64,000 nucleotides of DNA, taken from the NCBI GenBank assembly GCA_037431425.1, contig GCA_037431425.1_4129.1. One strand, written 5' to 3'. Each line of letters opens with the position of its first letter. Positions within the stretch are counted from its first letter, which is position 1. The DNA comes from a phage. Both the position numbers and the translations under genes were made by a program. The notes beneath the pieces were generated by a model. It was not told where the DNA came from, did no database searches, and saw only the letters and a program-made list of their open reading frames with translations. Of this stretch, positions 1-48,509 are shown piece by piece.

Positions 1-31
1 TTATGTATTATATGCATATTGAGGACTGATT

Positions 32-862
32 ATGTCATTGGAAAAATTAATCATTTCCGAATTCCGAAAGTACATCATGGATTGTGATAGAGATATCCAG
101 CGTAAATTCAATGAGTATCTTGACAAATATCCATATTTGATGTTTAATCCATTTGAAACTCAAACCGATGTCAAACTTGGATTTTACATTGGGTTTACTC
201 AACGAATTCTACAACAATATGAGATGAAACAAGCAGAGGTTTGGGTAGAAACTGATTCGAATGAGACGAATGTTTTTTACCTGTACTCTTATTATGCGGA
301 AATTGTTAGTTCAATGACACTAGAAGGGTATCTATTCGTCAAAACATCTGATATTGAAAAAATATACATAGAACCTGTATCTTTGGATATGGTTGCCCAG
401 CTTCCAACTATCCAGCAAATGGATGCGAATGAATTAACATATTCAGTATTTGAGTACCTTAATAGAGATGATTTAACTCAAGAAATTGAGAATATGGTTG
501 CATCATATACTTCAACTCTTATATCTAATGGTTCACTTAGAATAGAACTGATTTACGACGATACTAGTACTAATGCAGTACGAGGTACTCGAATTGGAAA
601 AGTTACTATACGTGTTGTCCACAATGATGTAGTACTTGGTTATATTTCGAAACGTGGTCATGACTTGTGTATGATTAACGCATATGTTATTGACCGAAAA
701 GAATGGAACGATTTAATGCAAAAAATCGTAGACGGAAGTGGAATTCGTGATATAATGAGTAATGAAACAGTGATAATTAATCCTGATATTGACTGTGATG
801 TATATTTTCCAGTTCCTGGATTTACACTACGTAATTTTGGTAAATTAAAGGATACAAAATGA
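32..862 (+). CDS. hypothetical protein (276 aa)
   Basis: Long track ORF; stop overlaps next start at 859. Confidence 0.6.
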   Translation: MSLEKLIISEFRKYIMDCDRDIQRKFNEYLDKYPYLMFNPFETQTDVKLGFYIGFTQRILQQYEMKQAEVWVETDSNETNVFYLYSYYAEIVSSMTLEGYLFVKTSDIEKIYIEPVSLDMVAQLPTIQQMDANELTYSVFEYLNRDDLTQEIENMVASYTSTLISNGSLRIELIYDDTSTNAVRGTRIGKVTIRVVHNDVVLGYISKRGHDLCMINAYVIDRKEWNDLMQKIVDGSGIRDIMSNETVIINPDIDCDVYFPVPGFTLRNFGKLKDTK

Positions 863-1149
863 AAATTTTAGAAGTTTTACTTGAAAAAGATGCATCTGGT
901 ACTCTTTATGTTGGTAATGATTTCAGTCCTGATCCAATTGATATGATGCAGCGTATTCAATCACTGACCCAATCAATTTCAGTTAAACAACCTTTCCTAA
1001 AAGAATTGGAAATTCATTGCGATAAAGACATGGAGCAGCATGATAATGTTATTTCTGATATCAAAAATCTGTTGACAAAGAACGGATATGTGGAGTATAA
1101 TCCTCCTATCGTAATCGTTATCCCTGGCTTCATGAGAGGAACATTGTAA
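859..1149 (+). CDS. hypothetical protein
   Basis: Track ORF; ATG at 859 after aaagga; co-oriented compact array. Confidence 0.55.
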   Translation: MKILEVLLEKDASGTLYVGNDFSPDPIDMMQRIQSLTQSISVKQPFLKELEIHCDKDMEQHDNVISDIKNLLTKNGYVEYNPPIVIVIPGFMRGTL

Positions 1150-1418
1150 TGACGAAAGAAGAAATGAAATCTCGCTTAAGCGAACTGAAGAAAGAACGCA
1201 AACTAGTCCGTTTGGACTGGGACATTCTTAACAAAAAAGATGAGCAATCATATGCTAATTGGAGTTCTGATAAAGTTCGCAATGAACGTAGTAAAGAAGA
1301 CAACAAACAGTTTATGGCACTGTCCAAGCGTTTATCTGCATTAAATAGTGAAATTACAGGTCTACAGAAAGAAATTATTTCGATTTTACGAGATGAGATT
1401 AAATCACTATATGAATAA
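1149..1418 (+). CDS. hypothetical protein, charged/coiled-coil-like
   Basis: Track ORF; start overlaps previous stop. Confidence 0.55.
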   Translation: MTKEEMKSRLSELKKERKLVRLDWDILNKKDEQSYANWSSDKVRNERSKEDNKQFMALSKRLSALNSEITGLQKEIISILRDEIKSLYE

Positions 1419-1707
1419 ACATGAAGTATTAGTATTAGATAATAAATTCTATGTACCAAATAATGATAGTACTGAAACATATTATCTAATTAATAAAATT
1501 ATGACTGAAACTAATACTTGTTGTCGTCAAATCCCAGGAAAATATGAGTTCAGTCAGTCTATTGGCTATTATCGTTATAATCCATTGGAATCATTTACAA
1601 TTGACGTGTTGAAAGTTATTGACATTCTTGTACAGAATGGGTATAATGAAAAACATGTAAATAACTCAGAATTACCAGTTTCAAAAATCGTTATTTCTAA
1701 TAATTAG
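1411..1707 (+). CDS. hypothetical protein
   Basis: Track ORF 1348..1707; start moved to in-frame ATG 1411 (ATGAATAA overlap with upstream stop). Confidence 0.5.
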   Translation: MNKHEVLVLDNKFYVPNNDSTETYYLINKIMTETNTCCRQIPGKYEFSQSIGYYRYNPLESFTIDVLKVIDILVQNGYNEKHVNNSELPVSKIVISNN

Positions 1708-1709
1708 AG

Positions 1710-1738
1710 TTGGATAATAACAGATGATGTGATATAAT
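1710..1738 (+). promoter_or_regulatory. sigma70-type promoter (TTGGAT-N17-TATAAT)
   Basis: Read directly from sequence; precedes ORF 1821. Confidence 0.5.
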
Positions 1739-1820
1739 GTTTTTATCGGCAGATGTTAAAATGCAAACCATTCCTCAATGATGAGGGTTTTTCATTAAAA
1801 AGAAATAAAAGGGTATTAAA

Positions 1821-2030
1821 ATGGCTAAAGAAATTCACGCACAAGTACTAGATATCACCGACTTCGACCGCACTGTGAACTACATTCAATTCCAGATTCA
1901 TCAAGCTGAAGAAGCTCTTGCTGCATTCCATGGTACTGGTGCAAGGCCAATCCGTTTTGCTCACCTAGTTGCATGGAAGAAAAGTCTACAAGAAGAACTG
2001 TCTGAAATGCGTAAAGCAAATCGTAAGTAA
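1821..2030 (+). CDS. hypothetical small protein
   Basis: Track ORF between promoter at 1710 and terminator hairpin at 2039. Confidence 0.55.
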   Translation: MAKEIHAQVLDITDFDRTVNYIQFQIHQAEEALAAFHGTGARPIRFAHLVAWKKSLQEELSEMRKANRK

Positions 2031-2038
2031 TCTGTTTT

Positions 2039-2067
2039 CGCCCCATCAATTCTGGTGGGGCATTTTA
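2039..2067 (+). terminator. rho-independent terminator
   Basis: GCCCCATCAATTCTGGTGGGGC hairpin followed by ATTTT. Confidence 0.6.
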
Positions 2068-2093
2068 ATCACATAAATCAAGAGGATTAACAC

Positions 2094-2600
2094 ATGAGTA
2101 TCGAGTATTGGTTTTTGTTTGTGTGTATTGGAACACTTGCATTAATTACAATTGGATTAATTTTTAATACAATGATTACTGGAAGTAAGTACTTTAAAAC
2201 ATTCCAGCTTTTAATGTCAGCTATGCCATATAGTGCAGAAGCCGAAAAAACAATTTCTCTAATTTTAGATAAGTTCGATGCAAATCTGTTAGTTGCGAAA
2301 ATTTCGGATTGTGATACAAATATGGTATTTTATTCTACCGTCGATGAATCAGGTTCAAAATATGACAAATGTACATCTCCTATAGTTGCTGAAATTTTTA
2401 TTGGTTCAAAATATTATGCTTACGGGTATGTAAGAAAATATTATTCCGAAGCAAAAGCTGAGTTGACGAAGAAACGCCCATCGGTAAAAACATTAAAACG
2501 TATCATTGCGTTGGAAAATAAACTTCGTGGAGAAATTAATACAAATGAACCACCATCAGTAATTAAATCAAAAAATAATATTGTCGTGGAGTTAGAATGA
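2094..2600 (+). CDS. hypothetical membrane protein
   Basis: Track ORF; hydrophobic N-terminus; SD aagagga upstream. Confidence 0.55.
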   Translation: MSIEYWFLFVCIGTLALITIGLIFNTMITGSKYFKTFQLLMSAMPYSAEAEKTISLILDKFDANLLVAKISDCDTNMVFYSTVDESGSKYDKCTSPIVAEIFIGSKYYAYGYVRKYYSEAKAELTKKRPSVKTLKRIIALENKLRGEINTNEPPSVIKSKNNIVVELE

Positions 2601-2601
2601 G

Positions 2602-2889
2602 ATGCAGCCTGAAAAATCAAAACAGATCCTTATTGATGTACAAGCTAAATTATTAGATGTTATGAAAATCATCGATGAGTTACCACAGGGTTATAAGTTC
2701 AAAGTTCGTGAGATGTTATCGTGTGCCGAAACTGTTGTTTCTATGTATGATGATGTGCAGAACGGAGTTATTCCTGATATTTTAAACGATGATGTAAATA
2801 ATACCGAAGTGGAAGAGACGATCTCAGAAACAGAAAATGTATCTAATAAAAAAGTACTTGATATTAGTGGTATAAAAATTAATATCTAA
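2602..2889 (+). CDS. hypothetical protein
   Basis: Track ORF, tightly abutting previous gene. Confidence 0.5.
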   Translation: MQPEKSKQILIDVQAKLLDVMKIIDELPQGYKFKVREMLSCAETVVSMYDDVQNGVIPDILNDDVNNTEVEETISETENVSNKKVLDISGIKINI

Positions 2890-2967
2890 AATATTCAATA
2901 AGAGAATTAATGAGTTATTAAATAGTTAGAGATCAAAACACATACATTCGCAGTTACGTCAAAAATC

Positions 2968-3003
2968 ACTTTATATTACCCAGTACTAGTACTGGGTATT
3001 TTT
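2968..3003 (+). terminator. terminator-like hairpin
   Basis: CCCAGTACTAGTACTGGG palindrome followed by TATTTTTAT. Confidence 0.5.
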
Positions 3004-3016
3004 ATAAGGATATAAA

Positions 3017-3409
3017 ATGACTAAATCTGAACTATATGAAATGATAGATTTCATTTATGAAATGGTACAGGATGAAAAACACATCAATACTATTGGATCA
3101 GGTCCAAGACAAATTGGTAACCAAATGACATATTCTTTGTCCTTATGGTTACACCAACAATTCAATGTTGATTGTTTGTATTTCCGTCCTGATATTGGTG
3201 CATATTATTTTGTCAATTATGATGCACTAATGAAACAAAGCAAGCGACCAGTTGATGAATCATTTGTTACATACCCATTTTACCTTGCTGAATCAGAGGA
3301 AGATGAATTTCAAAAAGAAACCGTTTTAAGCAAAGGCGAAATTTGTATCCCTTACGCACTTAAAGATAAAATGATTTACATCACAGAAGTTATGAAAACA
3401 TGCTGGTAA
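3017..3409 (+). CDS. hypothetical protein with C-terminal EExFQxxTV module
   Basis: Track ORF; C-terminal EDEFQKETV motif shared with about 9 other ORFs here. Confidence 0.55.
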   Translation: MTKSELYEMIDFIYEMVQDEKHINTIGSGPRQIGNQMTYSLSLWLHQQFNVDCLYFRPDIGAYYFVNYDALMKQSKRPVDESFVTYPFYLAESEEDEFQKETVLSKGEICIPYALKDKMIYITEVMKTCW

Positions 3410-3456
3410 GTGCAATGAAACTCAGATATAATACTATGACTTACTAAGGAGAACAT

Positions 3457-4026
3457 ATGAACTTTATTAAATTCAACACATCTGAGTCAGAAGCATACTT
3501 TAATACAAATAATAAATTTAATATTATTCTTAAAGACGGAACGGTTGTTATCGGAGTATCATTGCTTTCATTTGATGGCGAAAAACTCGAAACTGTTTAT
3601 AAATTCACCAATCTTGATGGTGATTATTGGGATACATCAGATGTATCTAAAATTTGCACACATTATGTATTTGAATCTATTGAAGTTGGTGATGGCTGGG
3701 CATTGACCTGCAATGGTAATAAAGTATTTTCTGGTAACATATTTGGGGTAATTTCCAGTAAAGAAATAGTAGACCATCATCTTCATGTTCTCAATAATAA
3801 CGCCAACACTTATACACCTGATAATATCAAAATTCACGATATTGTAACATATATTGATTATAATGGTTTCAGACATAAAGCAATTGTAACTGAAATTAAA
3901 AAACCAAAAAATTATTTCGATCACGGTTTGATTGAAGTATATATGGTAGGTGGCGAAAAACAATACTTTGAACATTTCACTTATACTGGTTGGGATAGAT
4001 TCCTAACCGTTATTGAGGAATACTAA
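3457..4026 (+). CDS. hypothetical protein
   Basis: Track ORF; SD aaggaga upstream. Confidence 0.55.
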   Translation: MNFIKFNTSESEAYFNTNNKFNIILKDGTVVIGVSLLSFDGEKLETVYKFTNLDGDYWDTSDVSKICTHYVFESIEVGDGWALTCNGNKVFSGNIFGVISSKEIVDHHLHVLNNNANTYTPDNIKIHDIVTYIDYNGFRHKAIVTEIKKPKNYFDHGLIEVYMVGGEKQYFEHFTYTGWDRFLTVIEEY

Positions 4027-4027
4027 C

Positions 4028-4516
4028 ATGCCGATTCGTGGTGTACCAGACCCAATACGTGAAATTCTTAAGCACATTCGCATTGAAACACTAGAAGTTA
4101 ACATGCGTCGTTATAATATATATTACTTTAAAACTTCCGAAATGAGTTCTGTACAGATTGTCATTGGTACATCTATTAAGATTACTCGTGTACTTGATGG
4201 CAGTACTGACTTTGTTGAATACAACGTACTTACTAATAAAGTAACACATACATATAAATGGAGTGGATATAAAACTATTAAATATGAGTTTGACTTAGCT
4301 AGAACCGAAGAAGAACGATTCATGTTGAGTACTATAAATCCAGAAAACTATCCTGACATTGATACATTTTTGCTAATTTTAAAATTGTATAATAAAGCAA
4401 ATGAGAAAGCTAAAGAGTACAATAGAATCATGTATGAACGCAAAAAAGAACGTGTACAAAAAAGTTATGATCTGTATGATAACCCATACGTGAAATATAG
4501 TAAGGGAAAGAAATGA
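4028..4516 (+). CDS. hypothetical protein
   Basis: Track ORF 4013..4516 begins with TTG; ATG at 4028 preceded by GAGGA is the better start. Confidence 0.5.
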   Translation: MPIRGVPDPIREILKHIRIETLEVNMRRYNIYYFKTSEMSSVQIVIGTSIKITRVLDGSTDFVEYNVLTNKVTHTYKWSGYKTIKYEFDLARTEEERFMLSTINPENYPDIDTFLLILKLYNKANEKAKEYNRIMYERKKERVQKSYDLYDNPYVKYSKGKK

Positions 4517-4917
4517 ATAATGAAGTTCAAATTATCATTACTCCACCTATACAAAGTCTGGATGTAACCATTAGTGATTTTTTGGAAAAATACTATGAAT
4601 GGTTTAATGAAGATTCAGTCATTTATAACCATTCATTACCTGATGGTTTCGTTGAGCTTATTGAATTAAATGCCAAATCACTATACTTCTGTGTTGAATA
4701 CAATGATTATATGACAGATGAAGCATATCGTTTTCGTTGTACATTGTATCCTAACCATTTTTCCATTGGTTATAAAGACTATCAGTACTGCACCACAAAC
4801 TATAGTGTAGAGGAAGAATTTCAGTACAATTTACTTTATCCTGATTTAGATTATACGATTGCAGTACTGTTGACTAAAATCATGGATTTTTATAAAGATA
4901 AATATAATGCAGCCTAA
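4513..4917 (+). CDS. hypothetical protein
   Basis: Track ORF; overlapping start/stop with neighbours. Confidence 0.5.
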   Translation: MNNEVQIIITPPIQSLDVTISDFLEKYYEWFNEDSVIYNHSLPDGFVELIELNAKSLYFCVEYNDYMTDEAYRFRCTLYPNHFSIGYKDYQYCTTNYSVEEEFQYNLLYPDLDYTIAVLLTKIMDFYKDKYNAA

Positions 4918-5092
4918 GACATTCGATGAGTGGTATCAAATACATTACAATATAAATGCAGCAGATATATACTATTTTAAGCTTGAATTGTATATATCAT
5001 TGCGTGACCCAGTTGAGTACTATAACAACATTATCAATTGTGATGATTTTGGTACATATTTTAGTATTGCAGTTATGGATAAAATAAGATGA
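4907..5092 (+). CDS. hypothetical small protein
   Basis: Track ORF. Confidence 0.45.
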   Translation: MQPKTFDEWYQIHYNINAADIYYFKLELYISLRDPVEYYNNIINCDDFGTYFSIAVMDKIR

Positions 5093-5259
5093 CACACAAA
5101 GAATGGTTAGATGAACTAAAGTTCAAACATGATCATTTTGGCCTTGGTATACGCCAGAGTCATTATGATGTGTTAAAAGATAAACAACTTTTCAAATCAT
5201 TAGTACTTGATGAGGATAGTAATCACTGGTACATCTATGAGCTTGCGGTTAGAGATTAG
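5089..5259 (+). CDS. small protein of the MTHxEW family (56 aa)
   Basis: Manually found ORF below track cutoff; ATGA overlap at 5089; N-terminus MTHKEWLDE resembles the tandem ORFs at 6345-6831. Confidence 0.4.
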   Translation: MTHKEWLDELKFKHDHFGLGIRQSHYDVLKDKQLFKSLVLDEDSNHWYIYELAVRD

Positions 5260-5269
5260 AAGATATAGT

Positions 5270-5562
<293 letters not shown>

Positions 5563-5569
5563 TTTTTCA

Positions 5570-5597
5570 TTGACAACCTCAGTATATTTGCTATAAT
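5570..5597 (+). promoter_or_regulatory. sigma70-type promoter (TTGACA-N16-TATAAT)
   Basis: Consensus hexamers; precedes ORF 5632. Confidence 0.65.
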
Positions 5598-5631
5598 CAC
5601 TTCAGATGAATAAATCCACGAGGTATCCAAA

Positions 5632-5832
5632 ATGACAAAAGCAGAACTTGTTGCATTATTGGAATCATACCCTGATGATGCATGTATTGAAATTGTACAT
5701 ACTACACGACATTTTGACATTGAAGATGTAGTACGTTATAATGATAAAGGTGTACTAATCATGGAACTGTGTATTGGTGAAGTGAAAACTGTACCTGAAT
5801 CAGAAAAACGTAAAAAAATTAATCAGGAGTAA
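5632..5832 (+). CDS. hypothetical small protein
   Basis: Track ORF downstream of promoter at 5570; SD-like sequence upstream. Confidence 0.55.
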   Translation: MTKAELVALLESYPDDACIEIVHTTRHFDIEDVVRYNDKGVLIMELCIGEVKTVPESEKRKKINQE

Positions 5833-5836
5833 TATT

Positions 5837-6109
5837 ATGCATTTTGAAAAATTCAACACAAGTCGTGACACACGCATTGATGCTCTTTATGAAACCCAAG
5901 ACTCAATTAGTATTCGTACACGTAGTGGTGATGTATATCATGACTGTACTATTGGTTGGGAACAGGGAAGAACACGTAGTGCAGAATTCGATAACTATCG
6001 CTTCTACCAAGGGGACATCACAATCTGGCCTGAAGACGTAGAAGATATTGCAATTGAAGATGAACATAAAGATGAATTTATCAAATTTAATCCCGAAACC
6101 GAATCATAA
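5837..6109 (+). CDS. hypothetical small protein
   Basis: Track ORF; SD aggag upstream. Confidence 0.55.
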   Translation: MHFEKFNTSRDTRIDALYETQDSISIRTRSGDVYHDCTIGWEQGRTRSAEFDNYRFYQGDITIWPEDVEDIAIEDEHKDEFIKFNPETES

Positions 6110-6114
6110 ATAAC

Positions 6115-6239
<125 letters not shown>

Positions 6240-6246
6240 CAAAAGA

Positions 6247-6320
6247 CGGGGTATAGCACAATTGGATAGTGCAAGAGAATTCTAATCTCTAGGTTGGGGG
6301 TTCAAGTCCCTCTACCTCGG
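6247..6320 (+). tRNA. tRNA-Arg (anticodon UCU)
   Basis: Hand-folded: acceptor CGGGGTA/TACCTCG (one GU), D-stem GCAC/GTGC, anticodon stem AGAGA/TCTCT loop ATTCTAA, T-loop TTCAAGT. Confidence 0.75.
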
Positions 6321-6344
6321 CCTACTTCAATTAAAGGTTAAACC

Positions 6345-6509
6345 ATGACGCATGAAGAATGGATGAATGACATTAATTTTAGATATGCAGGTATCGGTAA
6401 CTGGAGAAAGTATCATTGGGAAATCATATCAGACCCAGCAGAATACGATAAACTTATGAATCATGAAGTGTATCCGTGGTTCTTTATTGAAATAATGGTA
6501 CGATTATGA
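6345..6509 (+). CDS. small protein, MTHEEWMNDINFRY family, copy 1 (54 aa)
   Basis: Manually found; SD aaaggtta; ATGA overlap with copy 2; near-identical N-terminus across three tandem copies. Confidence 0.5.
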   Translation: MTHEEWMNDINFRYAGIGNWRKYHWEIISDPAEYDKLMNHEVYPWFFIEIMVRL

Positions 6510-6666
6510 CACATGAAGAATGGATGAATGACATTAATTTTAGATATTCGGGTATCGGTAAATGGCTAAAGTATCATTGGGAATTCATTTCAGAGCCACA
6601 TCTGTATGATAAACTTATCAACGATTCTGCATATAAAATGTACTTAATTGAACTACTGGTACGAAC

Positions 6667-6670
<4 letters not shown>
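6506..6670 (+). CDS. small protein, MTHEEWMNDINFRY family, copy 2 (54 aa)
   Basis: Tandem paralog; ATGA overlaps on both sides. Confidence 0.5.
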
Positions 6671-6839
<169 letters not shown>

Positions 6840-6843
6840 AATC

Positions 6844-7284
<441 letters not shown>

Positions 7285-7312
7285 GTATCTTAACAACAGA
7301 AGGTATATTGAA

Positions 7313-7552
7313 ATGGGTAAGTATTTTGTGAGTTATAGTTATAATGTATCACGAAAGATTCCACGCGGTGACGGAATGGGATGGTCTTATGATGCATATA
7401 CTTTAAATGAGTCATGTATCATCGAATTACAAGAAAAAGACCTTGACATTTTAAAAATCAAACAATATATTCTTGATGTTGAATTGGCACATCGTACTGA
7501 TACCTATCCAGATGTAAACAACATCAGCATCTTAGTACTAACCAAAGTATAA
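7313..7552 (+). CDS. hypothetical small protein
   Basis: Track ORF 7283..7552 starts with TTG inside the promoter; ATG at 7313 with SD agaaggta is preferred. Confidence 0.5.
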   Translation: MGKYFVSYSYNVSRKIPRGDGMGWSYDAYTLNESCIIELQEKDLDILKIKQYILDVELAHRTDTYPDVNNISILVLTKV

Positions 7553-7622
7553 GATAAAAAGAACTTTACTAAATAATTCCACTGGAGATTAATATGTTTA
7601 AAGATGAACGTCCAGATTTGTA

Positions 7623-7661
<39 letters not shown>

Positions 7662-7667
7662 GAATTC

Positions 7668-8002
7668 CACAATCAGACGTATATGGTGTAAGTTACGTCG
7701 ATGCTATCCAGAACAAGATCTCTGGTACTCTAGGAAGTGGTGAATGTTAACCTAGACGGGTTTGATAATTGGACGATAGGCAATTATTACTTGACTAGCA
7801 GGTTGAAACTAGAGGTGACAGTCCTTCACCAAACTGGAAAGCCGGATGGACTTTTATTTAAAAGGGTAAGGCGTGGAAATATGTTTACTGTAGTTGCTTT
7901 TAGTAGCCTGTACGCCCCACGTCAAGGTAGTCGAAAGGCAAGTTAAAACGGGTGGTTATAAAGCTGAATTAACAGCGGCGTTTAAAAGCGTCACCATCCA
8001 TT
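7668..8002 (+). ncRNA. candidate structured non-coding transcript (or small basic protein)
   Basis: Promoter 7633..7661 upstream, T8 run at the end; locally GC-richer; track ORF 7737..7946 inside has a GTG start and unconvincing composition. Confidence 0.3.
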
Positions 8003-8023
8003 TTTTTAATTAAAGTTGGCTAT

Positions 8024-8390
<367 letters not shown>

Positions 8391-8401
<11 letters not shown>

Positions 8402-8420
8402 TATTCAGTACTGATATAAT
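8391..8420 (+). promoter_or_regulatory. sigma70-type promoter (TGGACA-N18-TATAAT) upstream of tRNA-Ser(GCU)
   Basis: CAGTACTG then TATAAT, 7 nt before the tRNA 5' end. Confidence 0.55.
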
Positions 8421-8426
8421 TAATTT

Positions 8427-8513
<87 letters not shown>

Positions 8514-8525
8514 TAAATTGTTCCA

Positions 8526-8612
<87 letters not shown>

Positions 8613-8662
8613 CTGATATTGTTATTATATGAGTTCTAACGATAATGAAACACTAGGAACAT

Positions 8663-8833
<171 letters not shown>

Positions 8834-8857
8834 ACGAAATTACAATAGGAAATTAAA

Positions 8858-9043
8858 ATGCAACTTTTAATTCTTTCAATATTGTATATTATTATAATGG
8901 TTCCGATATCAATACGTTTAATTACAGTTGAACGATTTTTATCGAAACATGGAAATAGATCTATGATATTTGTACCAATCGGGTTGATATTGTTTGGTAT
9001 ATTTTCATTTATAATGGGAATTAACGCTACATTCATTTCATAG
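8858..9043 (+). CDS. hypothetical small membrane protein
   Basis: Track ORF; hydrophobic; agga upstream; immediately after the tRNA cluster. Confidence 0.45.
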   Translation: MQLLILSILYIIIMVPISIRLITVERFLSKHGNRSMIFVPIGLILFGIFSFIMGINATFIS

Positions 9044-9052
9044 GAAACAAAT

Positions 9053-9310
<258 letters not shown>

Positions 9311-9412
9311 ATAAAAAGAACGAAAAGTAGACGGTCGTATTCAGTACTGAATCACCAGGGGAGGTTGTGATTCCCGATTCAGTAGCTTAAAAGCAGACCC
9401 GTATGTGCCTAA

Positions 9413-9465
<53 letters not shown>

Positions 9466-9466
9466 T

Positions 9467-9512
<46 letters not shown>

Positions 9513-9513
9513 T

Positions 9514-9647
<134 letters not shown>

Positions 9648-9649
9648 TA

Positions 9650-9833
<184 letters not shown>

Positions 9834-9913
9834 TAAATAATACAGTAAGATGGCCTCCCCTCCATATCATGAGAGTATAGAGACTTGTTGGTTATCTTAC
9901 TTTTAAACAAACT

Positions 9914-9987
9914 GCCTCAATAGCAAAATTGGTAATGCACACGTTTTGTAAGCGTGAGATTTTTCCGTTCGAGTCGGAATTGGGGCA
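9914..9987 (+). tRNA. tRNA-Thr (anticodon UGU), tentative
   Basis: Hand-folded: acceptor GCCTCAA/TTGGGGC (one GU), anticodon stem CACGT/GCGTG loop TTTGTAA, T-arm TTCCG-TTCGAGT-CGGAA; D-arm and variable loop slightly irregular. Confidence 0.55.
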
Positions 9988-17356: not shown

Positions 17357-17817
17357 TGATACTACTAGTATTATTATCAAGCCCGTTTGCTTATTTTATT
17401 CTGTATAATATTTTTAGTAATGCTCATCATTTTAAATACGCACAAACAATTGCAAAACATGAAGGATGGTGGCATTTTTTTCCAGCACTACTGTGTTCAT
17501 ATATGTTCAATGAACGCTATTTTATTTTTCCAGAATATACAAAGTACTATTATGATACTAAAATAAATGGCATAATTGAGTACTGTCTACGTAATTATCT
17601 GAACAATACAGATAATGTTAAAGTGAATTTATTAAATGGAAATTCACCAAGAATAGTCTTTACATCTTACATAGAAGACCCCATTTACTTATATCTATAT
17701 GATTATAGTATTTCGGTTCGTTGTTCTATGCGTAGTAGTTGTGAGTACTTTATCTTACTACCTACACAAATAAGATTAATAGAAAAATACTTGAAATTGA
17801 TTGACAAAAAAGATTAG
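17356..17817 (+). CDS. hypothetical membrane protein
   Basis: Track ORF; hydrophobic N-terminus. Confidence 0.5.
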   Translation: MILLVLLSSPFAYFILYNIFSNAHHFKYAQTIAKHEGWWHFFPALLCSYMFNERYFIFPEYTKYYYDTKINGIIEYCLRNYLNNTDNVKVNLLNGNSPRIVFTSYIEDPIYLYLYDYSISVRCSMRSSCEYFILLPTQIRLIEKYLKLIDKKD

Positions 17818-17829
17818 TAGGGTTATAAT
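17801..17829 (+). promoter_or_regulatory. sigma70-type promoter (TTGACA-N17-TATAAT)
   Basis: Consensus hexamers; precedes ORF 17862. Confidence 0.65.
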
Positions 17830-20241: not shown

Positions 20242-20739
20242 ATGACAACAGTTTACATTGATAAACGATTAAATTTATTGATTACTGATTCTAGAGTTAC
20301 ATTAACCATACCACGAAACTTATTTGGTATTTTCCCACTAAAACCAAAATATCAATATGAAGTTGTTAATCAAAAAACTTTATATGTACATGACCGTTTA
20401 TTCAGTGCTAGTGGGACAATAAGTGAAATTGATAAAGTACTGAATTGGTTAATTAACAAAGAACCTGTTATACCGCACAAAAAACTAGGTTGTCATTGTG
20501 TTCTACTATCCAAAGATTATATCATTCACATGAATATATCTAATGGTAAGTTCACTAAGAAACTTCAATATCTTCATGAAGACTATACATTCTTTATGGG
20601 AAGTGGTGGAGAGTATATGGTAGATGCAGCAATACATGAAGACACTACGACTTTATGTAATAAAGTTTTTAGTACATTCATGGACGTTCATAACCATGAT
20701 TCTTTTACAGATAGTAATATTAATGTGTATAAATTTTAA
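20242..20739 (+). CDS. hypothetical protein
   Basis: Track ORF. Confidence 0.5.
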   Translation: MTTVYIDKRLNLLITDSRVTLTIPRNLFGIFPLKPKYQYEVVNQKTLYVHDRLFSASGTISEIDKVLNWLINKEPVIPHKKLGCHCVLLSKDYIIHMNISNGKFTKKLQYLHEDYTFFMGSGGEYMVDAAIHEDTTTLCNKVFSTFMDVHNHDSFTDSNINVYKF

Positions 20740-20760
20740 TTTCGTCAATAGGAGAAGTAG

Positions 20761-21726
20761 GTGAAAAAACTTGATTTGAATACAATTGCAGATGAAGTTC
20801 TGGATGAATGCTTTGGTAATGAAGAAGTGAATACGCTGGATGCGTTAGAACCAGTTCAAGAAAAAGATAACATTGACGAGAAAAATAATGGTAATTTCAA
20901 GTTTAATATTAGTCTTAAGCGACCAGCAAATGTAACAAATGAAGATATTATTCGTGATATTCAAGCAGGTATTAACGTAAAGAAAAATACTGAACTATTA
21001 GTTCGTTATAATTACGGTTTGATTATTGATGTTGCAAGTAAATGCACGTGTTATATTCCATTTGAAGATAAGATTTCATATGGCATTGAGGGATTCATGC
21101 GAGCATTAAAAACATTTGACCTTAGTAAGAATGTAAAGTTCGCTACGTATGCATCGTCAAGTATCTATATGACTGTATACAATGAAAGCTCAGATGCTAA
21201 TCATCTGGTCCACTTCCCTCGTTACATGAGTGTTAATAAGATACAAGTGAAACGCTTCTGTCATAATTATGAGCGTCAGCATGGTTGTCGTCCTACACCT
21301 GAAATTATTTCTGAAGAGACTGGTATTGAAATCCAGCACGTTAAGAATTGTTTATTATTCCAAAGTGAATATACTTCACTGGATGCACCATTGGATGGTG
21401 TTTCTGATGGGACGATGAGTGATATTCTGCATTCATCTGAAGGTGATTATAATCTTAATGTTGACAGTATTCGTGCACCGTTGCGTTATACCATCAACGA
21501 ACTAACTAATGAGTTGAGTGCTAAGGAATGTGAGATTATTCAACGTGTTCATGGATTAGGTGAATTTAATCCTGAAACACTACGTGAAATTGCTGATAGT
21601 GGTTTTATTGATGACAATGGTAAGTGTGTAAAATCCAGATCTTCGGTTCATCGTAAATACAGTGATGCTCTTAAGAAACTCAAGAAATTAGTGCTCGCTA
21701 AAGGGTACGAATACGAAGATTTCTAA
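20761..21726 (+). CDS. sigma70-family RNA polymerase sigma factor
   Basis: Region-2-like stretch LLVRYNYGLIIDVASK...GIEGFMRALKTFD...KFATYASSSI and region-4-like HTH near the C-terminus (ECEIIQRVHGL...TLREIA...KYSDALKKLKK); GTG start with strong SD aggagaag; terminator follows. Confidence 0.75.
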   Translation: MKKLDLNTIADEVLDECFGNEEVNTLDALEPVQEKDNIDEKNNGNFKFNISLKRPANVTNEDIIRDIQAGINVKKNTELLVRYNYGLIIDVASKCTCYIPFEDKISYGIEGFMRALKTFDLSKNVKFATYASSSIYMTVYNESSDANHLVHFPRYMSVNKIQVKRFCHNYERQHGCRPTPEIISEETGIEIQHVKNCLLFQSEYTSLDAPLDGVSDGTMSDILHSSEGDYNLNVDSIRAPLRYTINELTNELSAKECEIIQRVHGLGEFNPETLREIADSGFIDDNGKCVKSRSSVHRKYSDALKKLKKLVLAKGYEYEDF

Positions 21727-21733
21727 ATTGTAA

Positions 21734-21762
21734 AGGTTGGCATATGCCAACCTTTTTTATTG
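21734..21762 (+). terminator. rho-independent terminator after the sigma factor gene
   Basis: AAGGTTGGCATATGCCAACCTT followed by T-run. Confidence 0.65.
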
Positions 21763-22314
21763 GGACACAGAATAAATATATGATATAATAATTATGTACA
21801 ATCCTGTTGAATGCAGAAATGCATATAAATTAGAACCTGATCCTATCGAAAACGTAGATGGCAGATGAGCAGTTCAGCAGTGCGATGAGCAGAAGAAACC
21901 CGTCAGAAGTGGGCATAGTTTGAACCCCTCACGGCAATGCGGCTCAATAAAGAACTCCGATAAGCATACAGAGAGTTCCTAGATAGACATATAAGGAATC
22001 ACACCTTACCAGATTTGCTAAGGGAGTCTTGAAATAAGACAGCTTGAGCTTTGATTGTATAGAGTTTCAAGTGAGTGCTGGGATGAAAAGACCAGTGACC
22101 GTTGCATATGACCGTGATAGGGAGAAACAGAGCAACCCGCTTCCGTTTGTGATTGATCATTTTAACAATATAGATCCGTCCAAAATTCACGATACAATAA
22201 TATCCGATGCCATCAGCGTCAAGAAGAGACTTAATTGTCTCTTTTTTATTACTTTCATTCCCCTGTGGGGGGATGAAATAGTCCTCAACAAATCCCGTCA
22301 AGTATTAAAAGTCC

Positions 22315-22343
22315 TAGACAGTTATGAAACATTCGCGTATAAT
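22315..22343 (+). promoter_or_regulatory. sigma70-type promoter (TAGACA-N17-TATAAT)
   Basis: Precedes ORF 22408. Confidence 0.5.
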
Positions 22344-29674: not shown

Positions 29675-29866
29675 ATGTTGATTTATCAATGTGACGGTAT
29701 TCGTGTTCTACAACATCCTTATCTTCAAATCTTTCATGTTCAGATGTTTATGGAAGGTGATAATCCGAGAACTTATGAACGCACATATGATTATTTCACG
29801 GTCAAAGAGTGCGACAACATCGATGAAGTACGACGATTAGTACATGAACTCCAAAACAAAGGTTGA
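29675..29866 (+). CDS. hypothetical small protein
   Basis: Track ORF ending inside the first PeSL-like module. Confidence 0.5.
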   Translation: MLIYQCDGIRVLQHPYLQIFHVQMFMEGDNPRTYERTYDYFTVKECDNIDEVRRLVHELQNKG

Positions 29867-29892
29867 CTTCGGTCAGCCTTTTTTGTTATAAT
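29858..29892 (+). promoter_or_regulatory. PeSL-like module 1: terminator hairpin with embedded -35 TTGACT plus downstream -10
   Basis: GGTTGAC-TTCG-GTCAGCC stem-loop, T-run, then TATAAT 18 nt after TTGACT. Confidence 0.65.
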
Positions 29893-32150: not shown

Positions 32151-32263
32151 TTTAACTTTGGGACAAACCTTCCTATAATGATATAATTTTTTTGTCAGTT
32201 TATTTAAATGACATATGAAATATAAATATTATTGTAAAGTTTATCTCTTATAGGAGTTATAAA

Positions 32264-38496: not shown

Positions 38497-38910
38497 ATGA
38501 AGAAGTGTATCACGTGTAATATTGAAAAAGACATTAGTGAATTTGGTATAAGAAAAGATACTGGGAAACATAGAAATACATGCAAAGGTTGTAGTAATAT
38601 TACCAGTAAGAAAACCAGAAATAAAAAAACTGATGTCAAAAAACTTGAAGAAATCAAAAGAAAAAATAAAGATTTCATGTCCAGAGTTAAATCATTTTAT
38701 GGTTGTAGTATTTGTATGATGAAGTATCCAGAATGTTTAGACTTTCATCATCTTGATCCGAATATCAAAGAACATACACCAAGTTCTATGTTCAGTAAAA
38801 GTCGAGATGCTATCAAAGATGAAATTCGAAAGTGTATGATTCTTTGTTCTAATCATCATCGCATGGTCCATTCTGGAAGACTATGCTTAATTGAAAGAAA
38901 AAAGGGTTGA
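38497..38910 (+). CDS. HNH endonuclease-like protein (homing-endonuclease-like)
   Basis: Track ORF; CxxC...CxxC and DFHHLDP...CSNHHRMVH fit an HNH/zinc-finger motif. Confidence 0.6.
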   Translation: MKKCITCNIEKDISEFGIRKDTGKHRNTCKGCSNITSKKTRNKKTDVKKLEEIKRKNKDFMSRVKSFYGCSICMMKYPECLDFHHLDPNIKEHTPSSMFSKSRDAIKDEIRKCMILCSNHHRMVHSGRLCLIERKKG

Positions 38911-38936
38911 CTTCTGTCAGCCCTTTTTGCTATAAT
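38904..38936 (+). promoter_or_regulatory. PeSL-like module 4
   Basis: GGGTTGACTTCTGTCAGCCC + T5 + GCTATAAT; downstream roughly 25 bp identical to module 6. Confidence 0.65.
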
Positions 38937-42308: not shown

Positions 42309-42340
42309 GGTTGACTTCGGTCAGCCTTTATTGTTATAAT
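42309..42340 (+). promoter_or_regulatory. PeSL-like module 5 (upstream of denV)
   Basis: GGTTGACTTCGGTCAGCC + TTTATTG + TTATAAT. Confidence 0.6.
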
Positions 42341-42876: not shown

Positions 42877-42911
42877 AAGGGTTGACTTCGGTCAACCCTT
42901 TTTGCTATAAT
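42877..42911 (+). promoter_or_regulatory. PeSL-like module 6 (downstream of denV)
   Basis: AAGGGTTGACTTCGGTCAACCCTT perfect 10-bp stem + T-run + GCTATAAT. Confidence 0.65.
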
Positions 42912-47290: not shown

Positions 47291-48436
47291 TTATTTTTTC
47301 CAAGGAAGTAACGAAGTTGGTATTTTGATAGGTATATTTGATGAAACAACATCAGGAAAATTTGCATCCCCACAAACATACAAATTATCGTCTTCGTCTA
47401 TCAATAATATATAGTTGTAACTTCTACAAAACCCATTTAAACCTCTTCCCTCTAATGCAGATAAATTTATTTCAGTGAATTGTGTTATATATGTTTCATT
47501 TGAACCAACACCACATTGACCATTAGCATTTATACCACAAGTAAGCAATTTATTATTGTTTTGAATTATACATGATGGTCCAGCAAGGTTTGTACCTAGT
47601 TCACCTACAACGTTGACCTCACCTTGTAATGATAAATTTGGAATCACTGTACTCATTGGGACACGAGATGTATTTCCAACACCTGCTTGTCCTGAACCAT
47701 TAGTGGATGCTACTTTAACAGTACCGTCATTAAGAAAAATATAAGATGTTTCGATTGTATTAACTGCTTGAGTAGCTGATGTTATTGACGTATCCTGTTT
47801 GAATTTGAGTACATTTGTTGTTGTCGAACCAGAGATATATGTAGCACCTGCGTACCAATATGTTCCATCCTGGAGTACTAAACCAGTACTTCTAATTGAA
47901 CACCCAGCACTTCGAACATTTTCTATATGACTATATGTAAAGGTTGATACAATTGAAGATTCACCATTACCAAATACCCCACCAGTACCTGCACCACAGA
48001 AAAACCATTTACCGTTTTTCAAAAATACACGCATACAAGCAGAAATAACCACACTATCAATATCACTTGCAGTTACACCAAAATCGGTAAAGAAATGAGT
48101 TATATCAATCCAATTGCCACCAGTATTTGATGGGAGATGTGGAATTACAACTCTAGTCCCTGTGTACCAGATTGTATCATCATCTTTAATAACAAGCGTA
48201 CCTTGAACACCCCCCCAATACCTGGTTACATTAGTATTAACAAGTGTCCACTCATTAGATGATTCCGTTGAGCCATTACCACCTTGACCATATGATGATG
48301 AACCGCACCAGTATAAATTGCCATTTTTATTTAAATAAAATTTTGCATCAGCCGAACATTGTAATCTGTATTTGAATACAGTTTTTGGTGCTGGTGCAAT
48401 ATTTGCATACTTAATCATTCTTCCAAAAGGTAACAT
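47291..48436 (-). CDS. RCC1-like repeat (beta-propeller-type) protein, paralog 1
   Basis: N-terminus MLPFGRMIKYANIAP shared by all seven; Gly/Ser/Thr/Asn-rich with GxNxxGQxG-type repeats; own SD gagggag and TATAAT upstream. Confidence 0.7.
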   Translation of the reverse strand: MLPFGRMIKYANIAPAPKTVFKYRLQCSADAKFYLNKNGNLYWCGSSSYGQGGNGSTESSNEWTLVNTNVTRYWGGVQGTLVIKDDDTIWYTGTRVVIPHLPSNTGGNWIDITHFFTDFGVTASDIDSVVISACMRVFLKNGKWFFCGAGTGGVFGNGESSIVSTFTYSHIENVRSAGCSIRSTGLVLQDGTYWYAGATYISGSTTTNVLKFKQDTSITSATQAVNTIETSYIFLNDGTVKVASTNGSGQAGVGNTSRVPMSTVIPNLSLQGEVNVVGELGTNLAGPSCIIQNNNKLLTCGINANGQCGVGSNETYITQFTEINLSALEGRGLNGFCRSYNYILLIDEDDNLYVCGDANFPDVVSSNIPIKIPTSLLPWKK

Positions 48437-48484
48437 AATTTCTCTCCCTCATTCATTATACTGTATTTAACCCAATTAAGAAAA

Positions 48485-48503
48485 GCCAGTATCAAGTACT
48501 GGT
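48485..48503 (-). terminator. intergenic hairpin between RCC1-like paralogs
   Basis: CCAGTA-TCAAG-TACTGG preceded by A-run on + (T-run on - strand). Confidence 0.55.
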
Positions 48504-48509
48504 ATTTTA

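What the first reader, a model, noticed from the sequence alone, without database searches (positions are those of the whole stretch)
20761..21726. Phage-encoded sigma70-family sigma factor
The 321-aa product shows region 2 (core binding/-10 recognition: GIEGFMRALKTFD, KFATYASSSI, HFPRYM) and a C-terminal region-4 helix-turn-helix, with an acidic N-terminal extension. T4 itself uses gp55/gp33 rather than a canonical sigma70-family protein, so this implies a different or additional transcription programme. Candidate targets are the TATAAT-only promoters ahead of the RCC1-like paralogs or the CAGTACTG-containing promoters.
Basis: partly seen in the sequence, partly recalled or inferred. Interest (0 to 1): 0.7.

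Follow-up and report, generated by a model that had tools for sequence, protein, structure and literature searches.

The report
Jumbo-phage sigma factor, already annotated
The gene is a real sigma factor (a protein that tells the host RNA polymerase which promoters to use) carried by a giant E. coli phage; it is already annotated in public phage genomes but has never been tested in the lab, and I propose a specific set of promoters it may read.

Summary
The ORF at 20761-21726 (+) is real and belongs to the sigma-70 family. Pfam regions 2 and 3 pass their cut-offs. Region 4 falls below its cut-off because the helix-turn-helix carries a conserved 8-residue insertion. PHROG 351 "RNA polymerase sigma factor" matches at 3e-53, and the best fold matches are sigmaS and sigmaA.

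The window is an Asteriusvirus (RaK2-like jumbo myovirus), about 98% identical to phage ph0011. There the same protein (99.7% identical) is already annotated. [quoted passage not shown] I found no experimental study.

The gene looks early. It has consensus sigma-70 promoters upstream, a Shine-Dalgarno site and a terminator right after the stop.

The close relative ph0011 also carries a T4 gp55-like late sigma, so this sigma adds a programme rather than replacing one.

The better candidate is a second promoter class, [G/A/T][G/A]GACA-N16-(TGn)TATAAT: 23 sites at that spacing against about 1 at other spacings. It precedes replication genes, tRNA genes and the gp55-like gene. Its upstream box differs between phage clades, while the early TTGACA box does not.

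The sigma-to-promoter link is inferred, not shown.

The parts
20761..21726 (+). Sigma-70-family sigma factor gene (321 aa, GTG start, TAA stop)
   Evidence: ORF; Pfam r2 and r3 above cut-off; PHROG 351 3e-53; 99.7% identical to the ph0011 'RNA polymerase sigma factor'
20750..20754 (+). Shine-Dalgarno site AGGAG, 7 nt before the GTG
   Evidence: Read directly from the sequence
20761..20910 (+). Codons 1-50: acidic N-terminal extension with the conserved helix motif L(D/N)LNxIxDEVLDECF
   Evidence: pI 4.1; predicted disordered except helix 6-18; motif conserved across the family
20911..21198 (+). Codons 51-146: partial region 1.2 plus region 2 (core binding and -10 reading). FxTYA is conserved; the sigma-70 W433/W434 pair is replaced by S-S
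   Evidence: Pfam r2 covers residues 80-141; residue alignment to RpoD; family alignment
21199..21480 (+). Codons 147-240: region 3 and the region 3.2 linker (SLDAPLDGVSDGTMSDIL)
   Evidence: Pfam r3 covers residues 162-228; alignment to RpoD
21481..21723 (+). Codons 241-321: region 4 helix-turn-helix
   Evidence: Pfam r4 below cut-off; helices 254-264, 274-280 and 293-313 with pLDDT 81-88
21604..21627 (+). Codons 282-289: 8-residue insertion (FIDDNGKC) in the turn of the region 4.2 helix-turn-helix, predicted to form a beta-hairpin
   Evidence: Alignment against cellular sigmas; model; G281, D284 and G287 conserved across the family
21732..21755 (+). Intrinsic terminator (10-bp stem followed by a T run) 6 nt after the stop codon
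   Evidence: annotated as a terminator in phage UE-S1
19163..19191 (+). Nearest upstream sigma-70-type promoter, TTGACG-N17-TATAAT, followed by the early-leader motif TACATCA. Probable promoter of the operon that ends with the sigma gene
   Evidence: No + strand terminator is predicted between it and the sigma gene
17801..17829 (+). Consensus sigma-70 promoter TTGACA-N17-TATAAT further upstream
21762..21789 (+). Class-2 promoter GGGACA-N16-(TGA)TATAAT directly after the sigma terminator. It drives a ~450-nt non-coding repeat
   Evidence: A promoter occupies the same position after the RaK2 sigma gene
6115..6142 (+). Class-2 promoter GGGACA-N16-TATAAT ahead of the tRNA cluster
8210..8238 (+). 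Class-2 promoter AGGACA-N17-TATAAT
8392..8420 (+). Class-2 promoter TGGACA-N17-TATAAT ahead of the tRNA at 8427
22315..22343 (+). Class-2-like promoter TAGACA-N17-TATAAT
32160..32187 (+). Class-2 promoter GGGACA-N16-TATAAT

Best explanation
The gene encodes a genuine sigma-70-family sigma factor of an Asteriusvirus (RaK2-like, T4-related jumbo myovirus).

Architecture: an acidic N-terminal tail, a partial region 1.2, then regions 2, 3, 3.2 and 4. It has no region 1.1 and no non-conserved insert, so it resembles group 2/3 sigmas such as sigmaS.

Proposed mechanism:
1. Host sigma-70 holoenzyme transcribes the gene early, from consensus promoters upstream.
2. The product binds host core RNA polymerase in place of sigma-70.
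3. It directs the polymerase to a second promoter class, [G/A/T][G/A]GACA(a)-N16-(TGn)TATAAT. This class precedes DNA-replication and nucleotide genes, Clp genes, the phage tRNA genes and the gp55-like late sigma gene.
4. The gp55-like sigma then reads ATAAATA late promoters.

The result would be a three-step sigma cascade: sigma-70, then the phage sigma, then the gp55-like sigma.

What is shown: family membership, domain layout, gene context, the existence and genome distribution of the promoter classes, and the clade-specific divergence of the class-2 box.

What is inferred: binding to core polymerase, expression timing, and above all that this sigma, rather than another factor, reads the class-2 box.
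For: Identity:
- HMM, sequence and fold matches to sigma factors.
- The AlphaFold model has sigma2, sigma3 and sigma4 helical domains.
- Residues of the -11A pocket are kept (F119, D120, K126, F127, T129, Y130), and Y130, T129 and F127 are invariant in the family.
- Orthologs are annotated as sigma factor in ph0011, 121Q, PBECO4, RaK2, GAP32 and CBB.

Early expression:
- Consensus sigma-70 promoters lie at 17801 and 19163, with no intervening terminator and a terminator at 21732.
- The CBB paper places the ortholog in the early region.

Promoter class 2:
- RGACA-N16-TAYAAT occurs 23 times, against about 1 at each other spacer from 8 to 27.
- All 23 sites near gene starts are on the + strand, and 18 of 23 have a TGn extension against 19 of 71 early promoters.
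- The sites precede the DNA polymerase operon, primase, gyrB, a helicase, ClpP, tRNAs and the gp55-like gene.
- Early, class-2 and late motifs occupy different parts of the genome.

A phage-encoded reader is implied:
- Orthologous genes in three clades keep a promoter at the same place, but the box differs: ph0011 G[GA]GACA, RaK2 TGAAC[AG], CBB GAAACG.
- The counts are clade-exclusive (23/0/0, 2/12/1, 3/0/9), while TTGACn-N16-18 is present in all three.
- The CBB box matches TTGACA at only 2 of 6 positions.

This sigma is a candidate reader:
- It evolves fast (35-43% identity between clades, against 73-80% for DNA polymerase).
- Within its recognition helix, the most variable positions are 293, 294 and 297. 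By the alignment these correspond to sigma-70 R584, E585 and R588, which I recall from memory as the base-contacting residues.
- No fourth promoter class was seen, so three classes match three sigmas.
- No AsiA or MotA homolog was detected.
Against: - No experiment on any ortholog was found.
- The class-2 -10 element is a perfect sigma-70 extended -10, yet this sigma lacks the sigma-70 residues that read it: W433/W434 become S/S, Q437 becomes M, T440 becomes Y, H455 becomes Y and E458 becomes V.
- Region 2.4 differs between clades (IYMTVYN against IRQHMYR) although the -10 element does not change. That pattern is what T4 middle promoters show when host sigma-70 reads the -10 and a separate activator reads the upstream box.
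- JNE01 has the same three variable helix residues as ph0011 but uses a mixed box set (GAGACA, GGGACA, GGAACA, TGAACA, TGAACG). There is therefore no simple residue-to-base code.
- Timing labels (early, middle, late) come from motif type and gene function, not from RNA data.
- Only 84 kb each of RaK2 and CBB were examined.
Confidence: 0.55

Rival explanations
1. Host sigma-70 reads the class-2 promoters through their extended -10 element. An unidentified phage activator binds the clade-specific box, as MotA and AsiA do for T4 middle promoters. The phage sigma then has another job, for example standing in for sigma-70 on TTGACA/TATAAT promoters after host sigma-70 is inactivated, or reading a promoter set I did not detect.
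For: - The class-2 -10 is the sigma-70 optimum TGnTATAAT in all clades.
- The phage sigma lacks the sigma-70 residues that read -12 and TG, and its region 2.4 varies between clades while the -10 does not.
- JNE01 shows mixed boxes with unchanged helix residues.
- CBB has an HTH_37 'transcriptional regulator' two genes upstream of its sigma.
Against: - No AsiA or MotA homolog was found, though the single-sequence phmmer search has limited sensitivity.
- The neighbours of the sigma gene in this window have no DNA-binding domain hits.
- No fourth promoter class was left over for the sigma.
- The variable recognition-helix positions fit a co-evolving reader.
Confidence: 0.3
2. The protein acts mainly as a competitor for core RNA polymerase. 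It shuts off host transcription and has little promoter specificity of its own.
For: - The sigma-70 W433/W434 pair, which I recall from memory as a promoter-melting determinant, is missing.
- The N-terminal acidic helix is conserved and could mimic DNA or block DNA binding.
Against: - Regions 3.2 and 4.2, which are needed for initiation and promoter binding, are retained and conserved across 18 divergent clusters.
- Y130, T129 and F127 of the -11A pocket are invariant. A pure decoy would not need them.
Confidence: 0.08
3. The gene is a recently captured, decaying copy of a host sigma gene with no function.
For: All NCBIfam equivalog cut-offs are missed by a wide margin.
Against: - The ORF is intact with a Shine-Dalgarno site and a terminator.
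- Its GC content is 35.0% against 33.7% for the window.
- It is conserved at full length in every RaK2-like clade examined.
- Its nearest cellular relatives are only about 30% identical or less.
Confidence: 0.02

Closest known systems
Orthologous sigma factors of RaK2-like / 'group 2.2' jumbo phages (ph0011 WAE77363, 121Q ORF167, PBECO4, phAPEC6, RaK2 ORF244, GAP32, CBB_513)
   Same: Same gene. Identity is 99.7% to ph0011, 83% to the 121Q group, 43% to RaK2 and 35% to CBB. Gene context is the same: early region, near the tRNA cluster. These orthologs are annotated as sigma factor and are described in PMC5259590, PMC7824862 and PMC11895373.
   Different: Nothing of substance. This window is a slightly different isolate (about 97-98% DNA identity to ph0011).
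E. coli sigmaS (RpoS) and the C-terminal part of sigma-70 (RpoD)
   Same: Same domain order, 1.2-2-3-3.2-4. These are the best fold and sequence matches (5ipl_F at 2.5e-10; RpoD at 8e-16). The FSTYA motif, the region 3.2 acidic loop and the helix-turn-helix are all retained.
   Different: - Identity is only 20-30%, and every NCBIfam equivalog cut-off is missed (85 bits against 354).
- There is no region 1.1.
- The W433/W434 pair is replaced by S-S, and Q437, T440, H455 and E458 are changed.
- Region 4.2 carries an 8-residue insertion.
- The N-terminal acidic helix is specific to the phage family.
phiEco32 gp36 and Salmonella phage 7-11 gp47 (enterobacterial phage sigma-70-family sigmas tested in the lab)
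   Same: These are phage sigmas that bind E. coli core polymerase and read phage middle or late promoters. Related phages keep promoters at the same genome positions but with different sequences (PMC8948821), which is the pattern I see for class 2.
   Different: They come from small podoviruses. Their promoters look nothing like sigma-70 promoters (GTAAtg-N16-aCTA in 7-11; a single-element promoter in phiEco32). They did not appear among the matches to this protein. phiEco32 also needs gp79; I did not search for a homolog here.
Bacillus phage SPO1 gp28 and gp33/34 sigma cascade
   Same: An early-gene sigma replaces the host primary sigma and switches on middle genes, which include the next sigma (general knowledge; abstract of PMC13401047).
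   Different: The host is Gram-positive, the sigmas are not orthologous, and the middle promoters do not resemble the host -10. Here the -10 stays TATAAT.
T4 MotA/AsiA middle-promoter system and T4 gp55
   Same: The T4 middle-promoter layout is a sigma-70-type (often extended) -10 plus a phage-specific box replacing the -35 (from memory), the same layout as class 2 here. gp55-like late sigmas and ATAAATA late motifs are shared.
   Different: T4 has no full-length sigma-70-family protein. It remodels host sigma-70 with AsiA and MotA instead. No AsiA or MotA homolog was detected here. The gp55-like protein is a separate gene outside this window (ph0011 193825-194664).

Membership tests
Sigma-70 family (Pfam clan / TIGR02937 superfamily) | Region 2 (core binding, -10 recognition) | tested here: met
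   PF04542 at 25.7 bits against cut-off 24, residues 80-141. FxTYA and Y130 are conserved.
Sigma-70 family (Pfam clan / TIGR02937 superfamily) | Region 3 | tested here: met
   PF04539 at 40.3 bits against cut-off 25.3, residues 162-228.
Sigma-70 family (Pfam clan / TIGR02937 superfamily) | Region 4 helix-turn-helix, by HMM | tested here: inconclusive
   PF04545 at 16.5 bits against cut-off 24.1. HMM and phmmer alignments stop at about residue 279-281, where the 8-residue insertion begins.
Sigma-70 family (Pfam clan / TIGR02937 superfamily) | Region 4 helix-turn-helix, by alignment and predicted structure | tested here: met
   The alignment places SRSSVHRKYSDALKKL on the TRERIRQIEAKALRKL recognition helix. 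The model has helices 254-264, 274-280 and 293-313 with pLDDT 81-88. Foldseek alignments to sigmaS span 260-265 columns.
Sigma-70 family (Pfam clan / TIGR02937 superfamily) | Binds core RNA polymerase and confers promoter-specific initiation | not testable with these tools
   Needs biochemistry. No published test on any ortholog was found.
Primary / group 2 sigma (RpoD or RpoS equivalogs) | Score above the NCBIfam equivalog cut-offs | tested here: not met
   RpoD_Cterm at 85 bits against 354; rpoS_proteo at 70 bits against 379.
Primary / group 2 sigma (RpoD or RpoS equivalogs) | Conserved region 2.3-2.4 and 4.2 DNA-reading residues (W433, W434, Q437, T440, R584, E585, R588, Q589) | tested here: not met
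   The aligned residues are S, S, M, Y, R, S, H, R. Only the R584 equivalent is kept.
PHROG 351 (phage RNA polymerase sigma factor) | Profile match | tested here: met
   3e-53, 182.6 bits, residues 1-317.
T4 gp55 late sigma family | Match to gp55 profiles | tested here: not met
   This ORF has no gp55 PHROG hit. The gp55-like protein is a different gene, ph0011 193825-194664 (PHROG 12791 at 5e-154).
RaK2-like jumbo-phage sigma clade | Full-length match that includes the N-terminal acidic helix and the region 4.2 insertion G-x-x-D-x-x-G-K | tested here: met
   Eighteen 50%-identity cluster representatives score E<=1e-28 over residues about 1-315. The next matches are cellular RpoD at 1e-20, and those end at residue about 280. 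G281, D284 and G287 are conserved.

The most novel reading that the evidence does not exclude
In RaK2-like jumbo phages, a full-length sigma-70-family protein with a beta-hairpin insertion in region 4.2 has taken over the role that MotA and AsiA play in T4. It reads a -35-like box that has drifted from clade to clade together with three base-contacting positions of its recognition helix: GGGACA in Asteriusvirus, TGAACA in Alcyoneusvirus, GAAACG in Mimasvirus. It keeps a near-perfect extended -10 because it lacks the sigma-70 W433/W434 promoter-melting residues. This would make a natural series of orthogonal sigma/promoter pairs that all work on enterobacterial core polymerase.
Probability: 0.45. 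Interest if true: 0.5.

Novelty: already known. Interest (0 to 1): 0.3.

Why it matters
The existence of the gene is not news. [quoted passage not shown] What remains open is its function, because no ortholog has been tested.

If the class-2 promoters are its targets, these phages run a three-sigma cascade on host polymerase. That would be a different solution from T4's remodelling of sigma-70. The clade-specific box and helix variants would also offer ready-made orthogonal sigma/promoter pairs for E. coli engineering. The promoter coordinates given here make the question directly testable.

Tried and rejected
- A k-mer scan with a high-order Markov background hid every motif because the sub-words were enriched too. 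It was replaced by an order-3 background and upstream-region enrichment.
- I guessed the gp55 homolog among ten unannotated ORFs near the capsid genes. None matched. It was then found through a weak phmmer hit from T4 gp55 (E=0.055) and confirmed by PHROG.
- I searched for T4 AsiA and MotA homologs by phmmer against all six-frame ORFs of ph0011 and the window. Nothing scored below E=0.3. Sensitivity is limited.
- I looked for a fourth promoter class among 130 upstream regions lacking the three known motifs. By eye, only terminators, bare extended -10 sites and ORF-calling artefacts were seen.
- Rfam scans of the window and of the non-coding repeat found only tRNAs.
- I tested CAGTACTG as a sigma target. 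I rejected it because it is a palindrome, lies mostly in coding DNA, and in promoters sits between perfect sigma-70 hexamers.
- I tested the TATAAT ahead of the RCC1-like genes as a -10 element. I rejected it because it lies too close to the Shine-Dalgarno site.
- I looked for a simple residue-to-base code between the helix and the box. JNE01 does not support one.
- The word-indexed homolog search returned only 14 proteins. The full HMMER scan was needed to see the whole family.
Full report
**Observation.** Window 20761-21726 (+) is an uninterrupted 321-codon ORF. It starts with GTG, and an AGGAG Shine-Dalgarno site lies 7 nt upstream. A strong intrinsic terminator (21732-21755) follows the stop by 6 nt. 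Residues 1-50 are acidic (13 D/E against 5 K/R, pI 4.1).

**Family.** The evidence for sigma-70-family membership is as follows.
- Pfam Sigma70_r3 (40.3 bits, cut-off 25.3) and Sigma70_r2 (25.7 bits, cut-off 24) pass. Sigma70_r4 does not (16.5 bits, cut-off 24.1).
- PHROG 351 "RNA polymerase sigma factor" scores 3e-53.
- The best NCBIfam matches are RpoD_Cterm (5.7e-24) and RpoS (2e-19), but both fall far below the equivalog cut-offs.
- phmmer against PDB chains gives RpoD, SigA, SigB and RpoS at 1e-16 to 1e-11, covering residues 63-281.
- An AlphaFold model built from 14 sequences (mean pLDDT 68, domains 75-88) shows helical sigma2 (60-146), sigma3 (154-199) and sigma4 (234-313). Residues 1-49 and the 3.2 linker are disordered.
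- The best Foldseek matches are sigmaS and sigmaA in holoenzyme structures (5ipl_F at 2.5e-10).

The observation and the core interpretation are therefore confirmed.

**What is unusual in the protein.** Four features stand out from the residue alignment to RpoD and to cellular sigmas.
- *Kept:* the F-x-T-Y-A core and most -11A-pocket positions (F119, D120, K126, F127, T129, Y130), and the acidic region 3.2 loop.
- *Changed in regions 2.3-3.0:* the sigma-70 W433/W434 pair becomes S-S, Q437 becomes M, T440 becomes Y, H455 becomes Y and E458 becomes V.
- *Inserted in region 4.2:* an 8-residue insertion (FIDDNGKC, residues 282-289) sits in the turn before the recognition helix. It is predicted to form a beta-hairpin. 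This explains why the Pfam r4 model fails and why all cellular matches stop at about residue 280.
- *At the N-terminus:* a conserved acidic helix, L(D/N)LNxIxDEVLDECF.

A full HMMER scan of 1.84 billion cluster representatives found 18 clusters at E<=1e-28 that match over the full length. The next matches drop to cellular RpoD-like proteins at 1e-20. All 18 share the three family traits.

**Where the window comes from, and what is already known.**
- The window is 97-98% identical to Escherichia phage ph0011 (Asteriusvirus). It runs across that record's ends: ph0011 292753-347100, then 1-6639.
- The ph0011 protein is 99.7% identical and is annotated "RNA polymerase sigma factor". A 100% identical protein is in nr under the same name.
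- Orthologs are annotated in 121Q, PBECO4, phAPEC6, UE-S1, RaK2, GAP32, CBB, XaC1 and others. In all, 89 phage records match and 71 of them cover at least 80% of the protein.
- The CBB paper (PMC5259590) describes the ortholog CBB_513 in the early region. It also reports three promoter classes: RpoD-like; a "divergent" class with TGAAACG plus TATA before replication genes; and ATAAATA late promoters. It notes a gp55-like protein as well.
- Iyer et al. 2021 (PMC7824862) state that all group 2 jumbo phages encode sigma factors of two kinds: minimal ones, and "complete" ones close to RpoD.
- The Sharanji paper calls the sigma a hallmark of group 2.
- I found no experimental study of any ortholog.

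The finding is therefore already known as an annotation.

**Gene context.**
- Consensus sigma-70 promoters lie upstream at 15965, 17801 and 19163. No + strand terminator is predicted between them and the sigma gene.
- The promoter at 19163 is followed by TACATCA, a motif also found just downstream of the -10 in the strong early promoters.
- The neighbouring ORFs have no known function. The ORF just upstream (20242-20739) has a weak HslV-type peptidase hit.
- The gene's GC content matches the genome (35.0% against 33.7%).

I infer that the gene is early and is transcribed by host sigma-70 holoenzyme.

**An additional programme, not a replacement.** ph0011 193825-194664, which lies outside this window, encodes a 279-aa gp55-like late sigma (PHROG 12791 at 5e-154; PHROG 234 at 3e-17). 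The syntenic genes in RaK2 and CBB are annotated as gp55. ATAAATA is the most enriched 7-mer in upstream regions (23 regions against 1.9 expected).

**Promoter classes.** I fetched the whole ph0011 genome and found three classes.
1. *Early class:* A-rich upstream sequence, then GTAC, TTGACA or TTGCA, N16-17 and (G)TATAAT. These are concentrated at 0-40 kb and 260-340 kb.
2. *Class 2:* [G/A/T][G/A]GACA(a)-N16-(gTGa)TATAAT.
3. *Late class:* ATAAATA-type motifs, mostly between 100 and 280 kb, peaking at 180-240 kb.

Class 2 is not a chance pattern.
- RGACA sits exactly 16 nt before TAYAAT 23 times, against 0-2 times at each other spacer from 8 to 27 except N17, which has 5.
- All 23 sites near gene starts are on the + strand. 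Eighteen of the 23 carry TGn, against 19 of 71 early promoters.
- The sites precede the DNA polymerase operon, primase, gyrB, a helicase, ClpP, a Clp ATPase, the tRNA cluster and the gp55-like gene.
- In this window, class-2 sites are at 6115, 8210, 8392, 21762, 22315 and 32160.

**Comparison across clades.** I examined 84 kb each of RaK2 (Klebsiella) and CBB (Pectobacterium).
- Orthologous genes keep a promoter at the same place: the gp55-like gene, the ORF before DNA polymerase, the 243-aa ORF after it, RNase H, and SSB (which has two promoters in each phage). The upstream box differs by clade: G[GA]GACA in ph0011, TGAAC[AG] in RaK2 and GAAACG in CBB. All are followed by N16(-17) and TGnTATAAT.
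- The counts are close to clade-exclusive, while TTGACn-N16-18 is enriched in all three:

| Box (spacer N16-17 to TAYAAT) | ph0011 | RaK2 | CBB |
|---|---|---|---|
| RGACA | 23 | 0 | 0 |
| TGAAC[AG] | 2 | 12 | 1 |
| GAAACn | 3 | 0 | 9 |

- The three hosts are Enterobacterales, whose sigma-70 region 4.2 is (to my knowledge) identical. A box that drifts between phage clades therefore points to a phage-encoded reader. The CBB box matches TTGACA at only 2 of 6 positions.
- The sigma is a plausible reader. It diverges much faster than DNA polymerase (35-43% identity against 73-80%). In its recognition helix the highest-entropy positions are 293, 294 and 297. The framework positions S292, T/S295, L/V296, R298, R/K299 and Y300 are conserved. 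By alignment, 293, 294 and 297 correspond to sigma-70 R584, E585 and R588, which I recall from memory as the base-contacting residues.
- Two metagenomic contigs with intermediate sigmas (45% and 51% identity) show GGGACA, TGGACA and GGTACA boxes.

**Caveats.**
- JNE01 has a sigma 58% identical to this one, with the same residues at 293, 294 and 297. It nevertheless uses a mixed set of boxes: GAGACA, GGGACA, GGAACA, GGAACG, TGAACA and TGAACG. There is no simple code.
- The class-2 -10 element is the sigma-70 optimum in every clade, although the phage sigma's region 2.4 and 3.0 residues are neither sigma-70-like nor constant across clades. This is the same promoter layout as T4 middle promoters, where host sigma-70 reads the -10 and MotA reads the box.
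- I found no AsiA or MotA homolog, but the search method was weak. I also saw no fourth promoter class that could belong to the sigma instead.
- From memory, alternative sigmas lacking the promoter-melting residues require near-consensus promoters. That would fit the strict N16 spacing and near-invariant TGnTATAAT of class 2, but I did not check this against a source.

I put the sigma-to-class-2 assignment at roughly even odds or slightly better.

- CAGTACTG occurs 43 times in the window against 0.72 expected and at 168 sites in ph0011. It is a palindrome and lies mostly in coding DNA. In about seven promoters it fills the spacer between perfect TTGACn and TATAAT hexamers. That looks more like an operator or a genome-wide signal than a sigma element.
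- Each of the seven RCC1-like genes (47291-55969, minus strand) is preceded by a terminator and TTAAATATAGTATAATGAATAAGGAGG. The TATAAT ends 15 nt before the ATG, so its start site would fall inside the Shine-Dalgarno sequence. A late-type TTAAATA element is the more likely signal.

**Verdict.** This is a real sigma-70-family sigma factor that is already annotated and has been discussed in the literature. Its function is untested. The best-supported model is an early-made sigma that drives a clade-specific second promoter class and thereby the gp55-like late sigma. Novelty: already known. Interest: 0.3.

Noticed in passing
window, 43 sites, e.g. 7267, 7647, 24153, 61042; dense cluster at 60564-63858: The palindrome CAGTACTG is about 60-fold over-represented (43 sites against 0.72 expected; 168 sites in ph0011). 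Most copies lie in coding DNA, and some fill the spacer of consensus sigma-70 promoters. Over-representation of a palindrome is unusual for a phage. Its function is unknown; possibilities include an operator or a modification or packaging signal.
   Followed up: partly
window 21794-22309 (second copy at ph0011 198578-199101): A ~520-nt non-coding repeat occurs in two copies that are 94% identical. Each copy begins at the start site of a class-2 promoter (window 21762-21789) and contains a hairpin plus T-run terminator (22221-22246). It is richer in GC than its flanks. The folding z-score is -2.85. It matches no Rfam family, and its 101-aa ORF has no Pfam or PHROG hit. It is a candidate phage non-coding RNA of about 450 nt, right next to the sigma gene.
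   Followed up: partly
window 20242-20739 (+): The 165-aa ORF ending 22 nt before the sigma start has a weak match to the HslV peptidase family (PHROG 1040 at 8.7e-5). It begins MTT..., which would expose an N-terminal threonine as in Ntn hydrolases.
   Followed up: no
window 29858-29892, 38907-38936, 42311-42340, 42882-42911: Combined terminator-promoter cassettes, GGTTGACTTCGGTCAGCC-TTTTTTGnTATAAT. The -35 TTGACT lies inside the terminator stem, and the T-run forms the spacer. The same cassette occurs in phage CBB (L012 23019 and 23556).
   Followed up: no
window 62330-62357, 62790-62817, 63496-63523 (and ph0011 5-24 kb): A family of very similar strong early promoters: AAAGTAC-TTGCA-N16-GTATAAT-GTTTTACATCA. 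In ph0011 each is followed by a conserved 5'UTR hairpin, GGGGAGAA...TTCTCCCC, before the ribosome-binding site.
   Followed up: partly
window 47291-55969 (minus strand): Seven tandem RCC1-like paralogs (368-449 aa). Each has a near-identical upstream cassette: a terminator GCCAGTACT...GTACTGGC followed by TTAAATATAGTATAATGAATAAGGAGG.
   Followed up: partly
window 6153-9987: A cluster of six tRNA genes. Class-2 promoters directly precede two groups of them (at 6115 and 8392). tRNA genes in RaK2 and CBB are likewise preceded by their own clade's class-2 box.
   Followed up: partly
window 57468-64000 = ph0011 1-6639: The window runs across the ends of the linear ph0011 record. Identity falls to 89-95% there and the region is largely non-coding and repeat-rich. 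This may be the true genome terminus or a terminal-repeat region.
   Followed up: no
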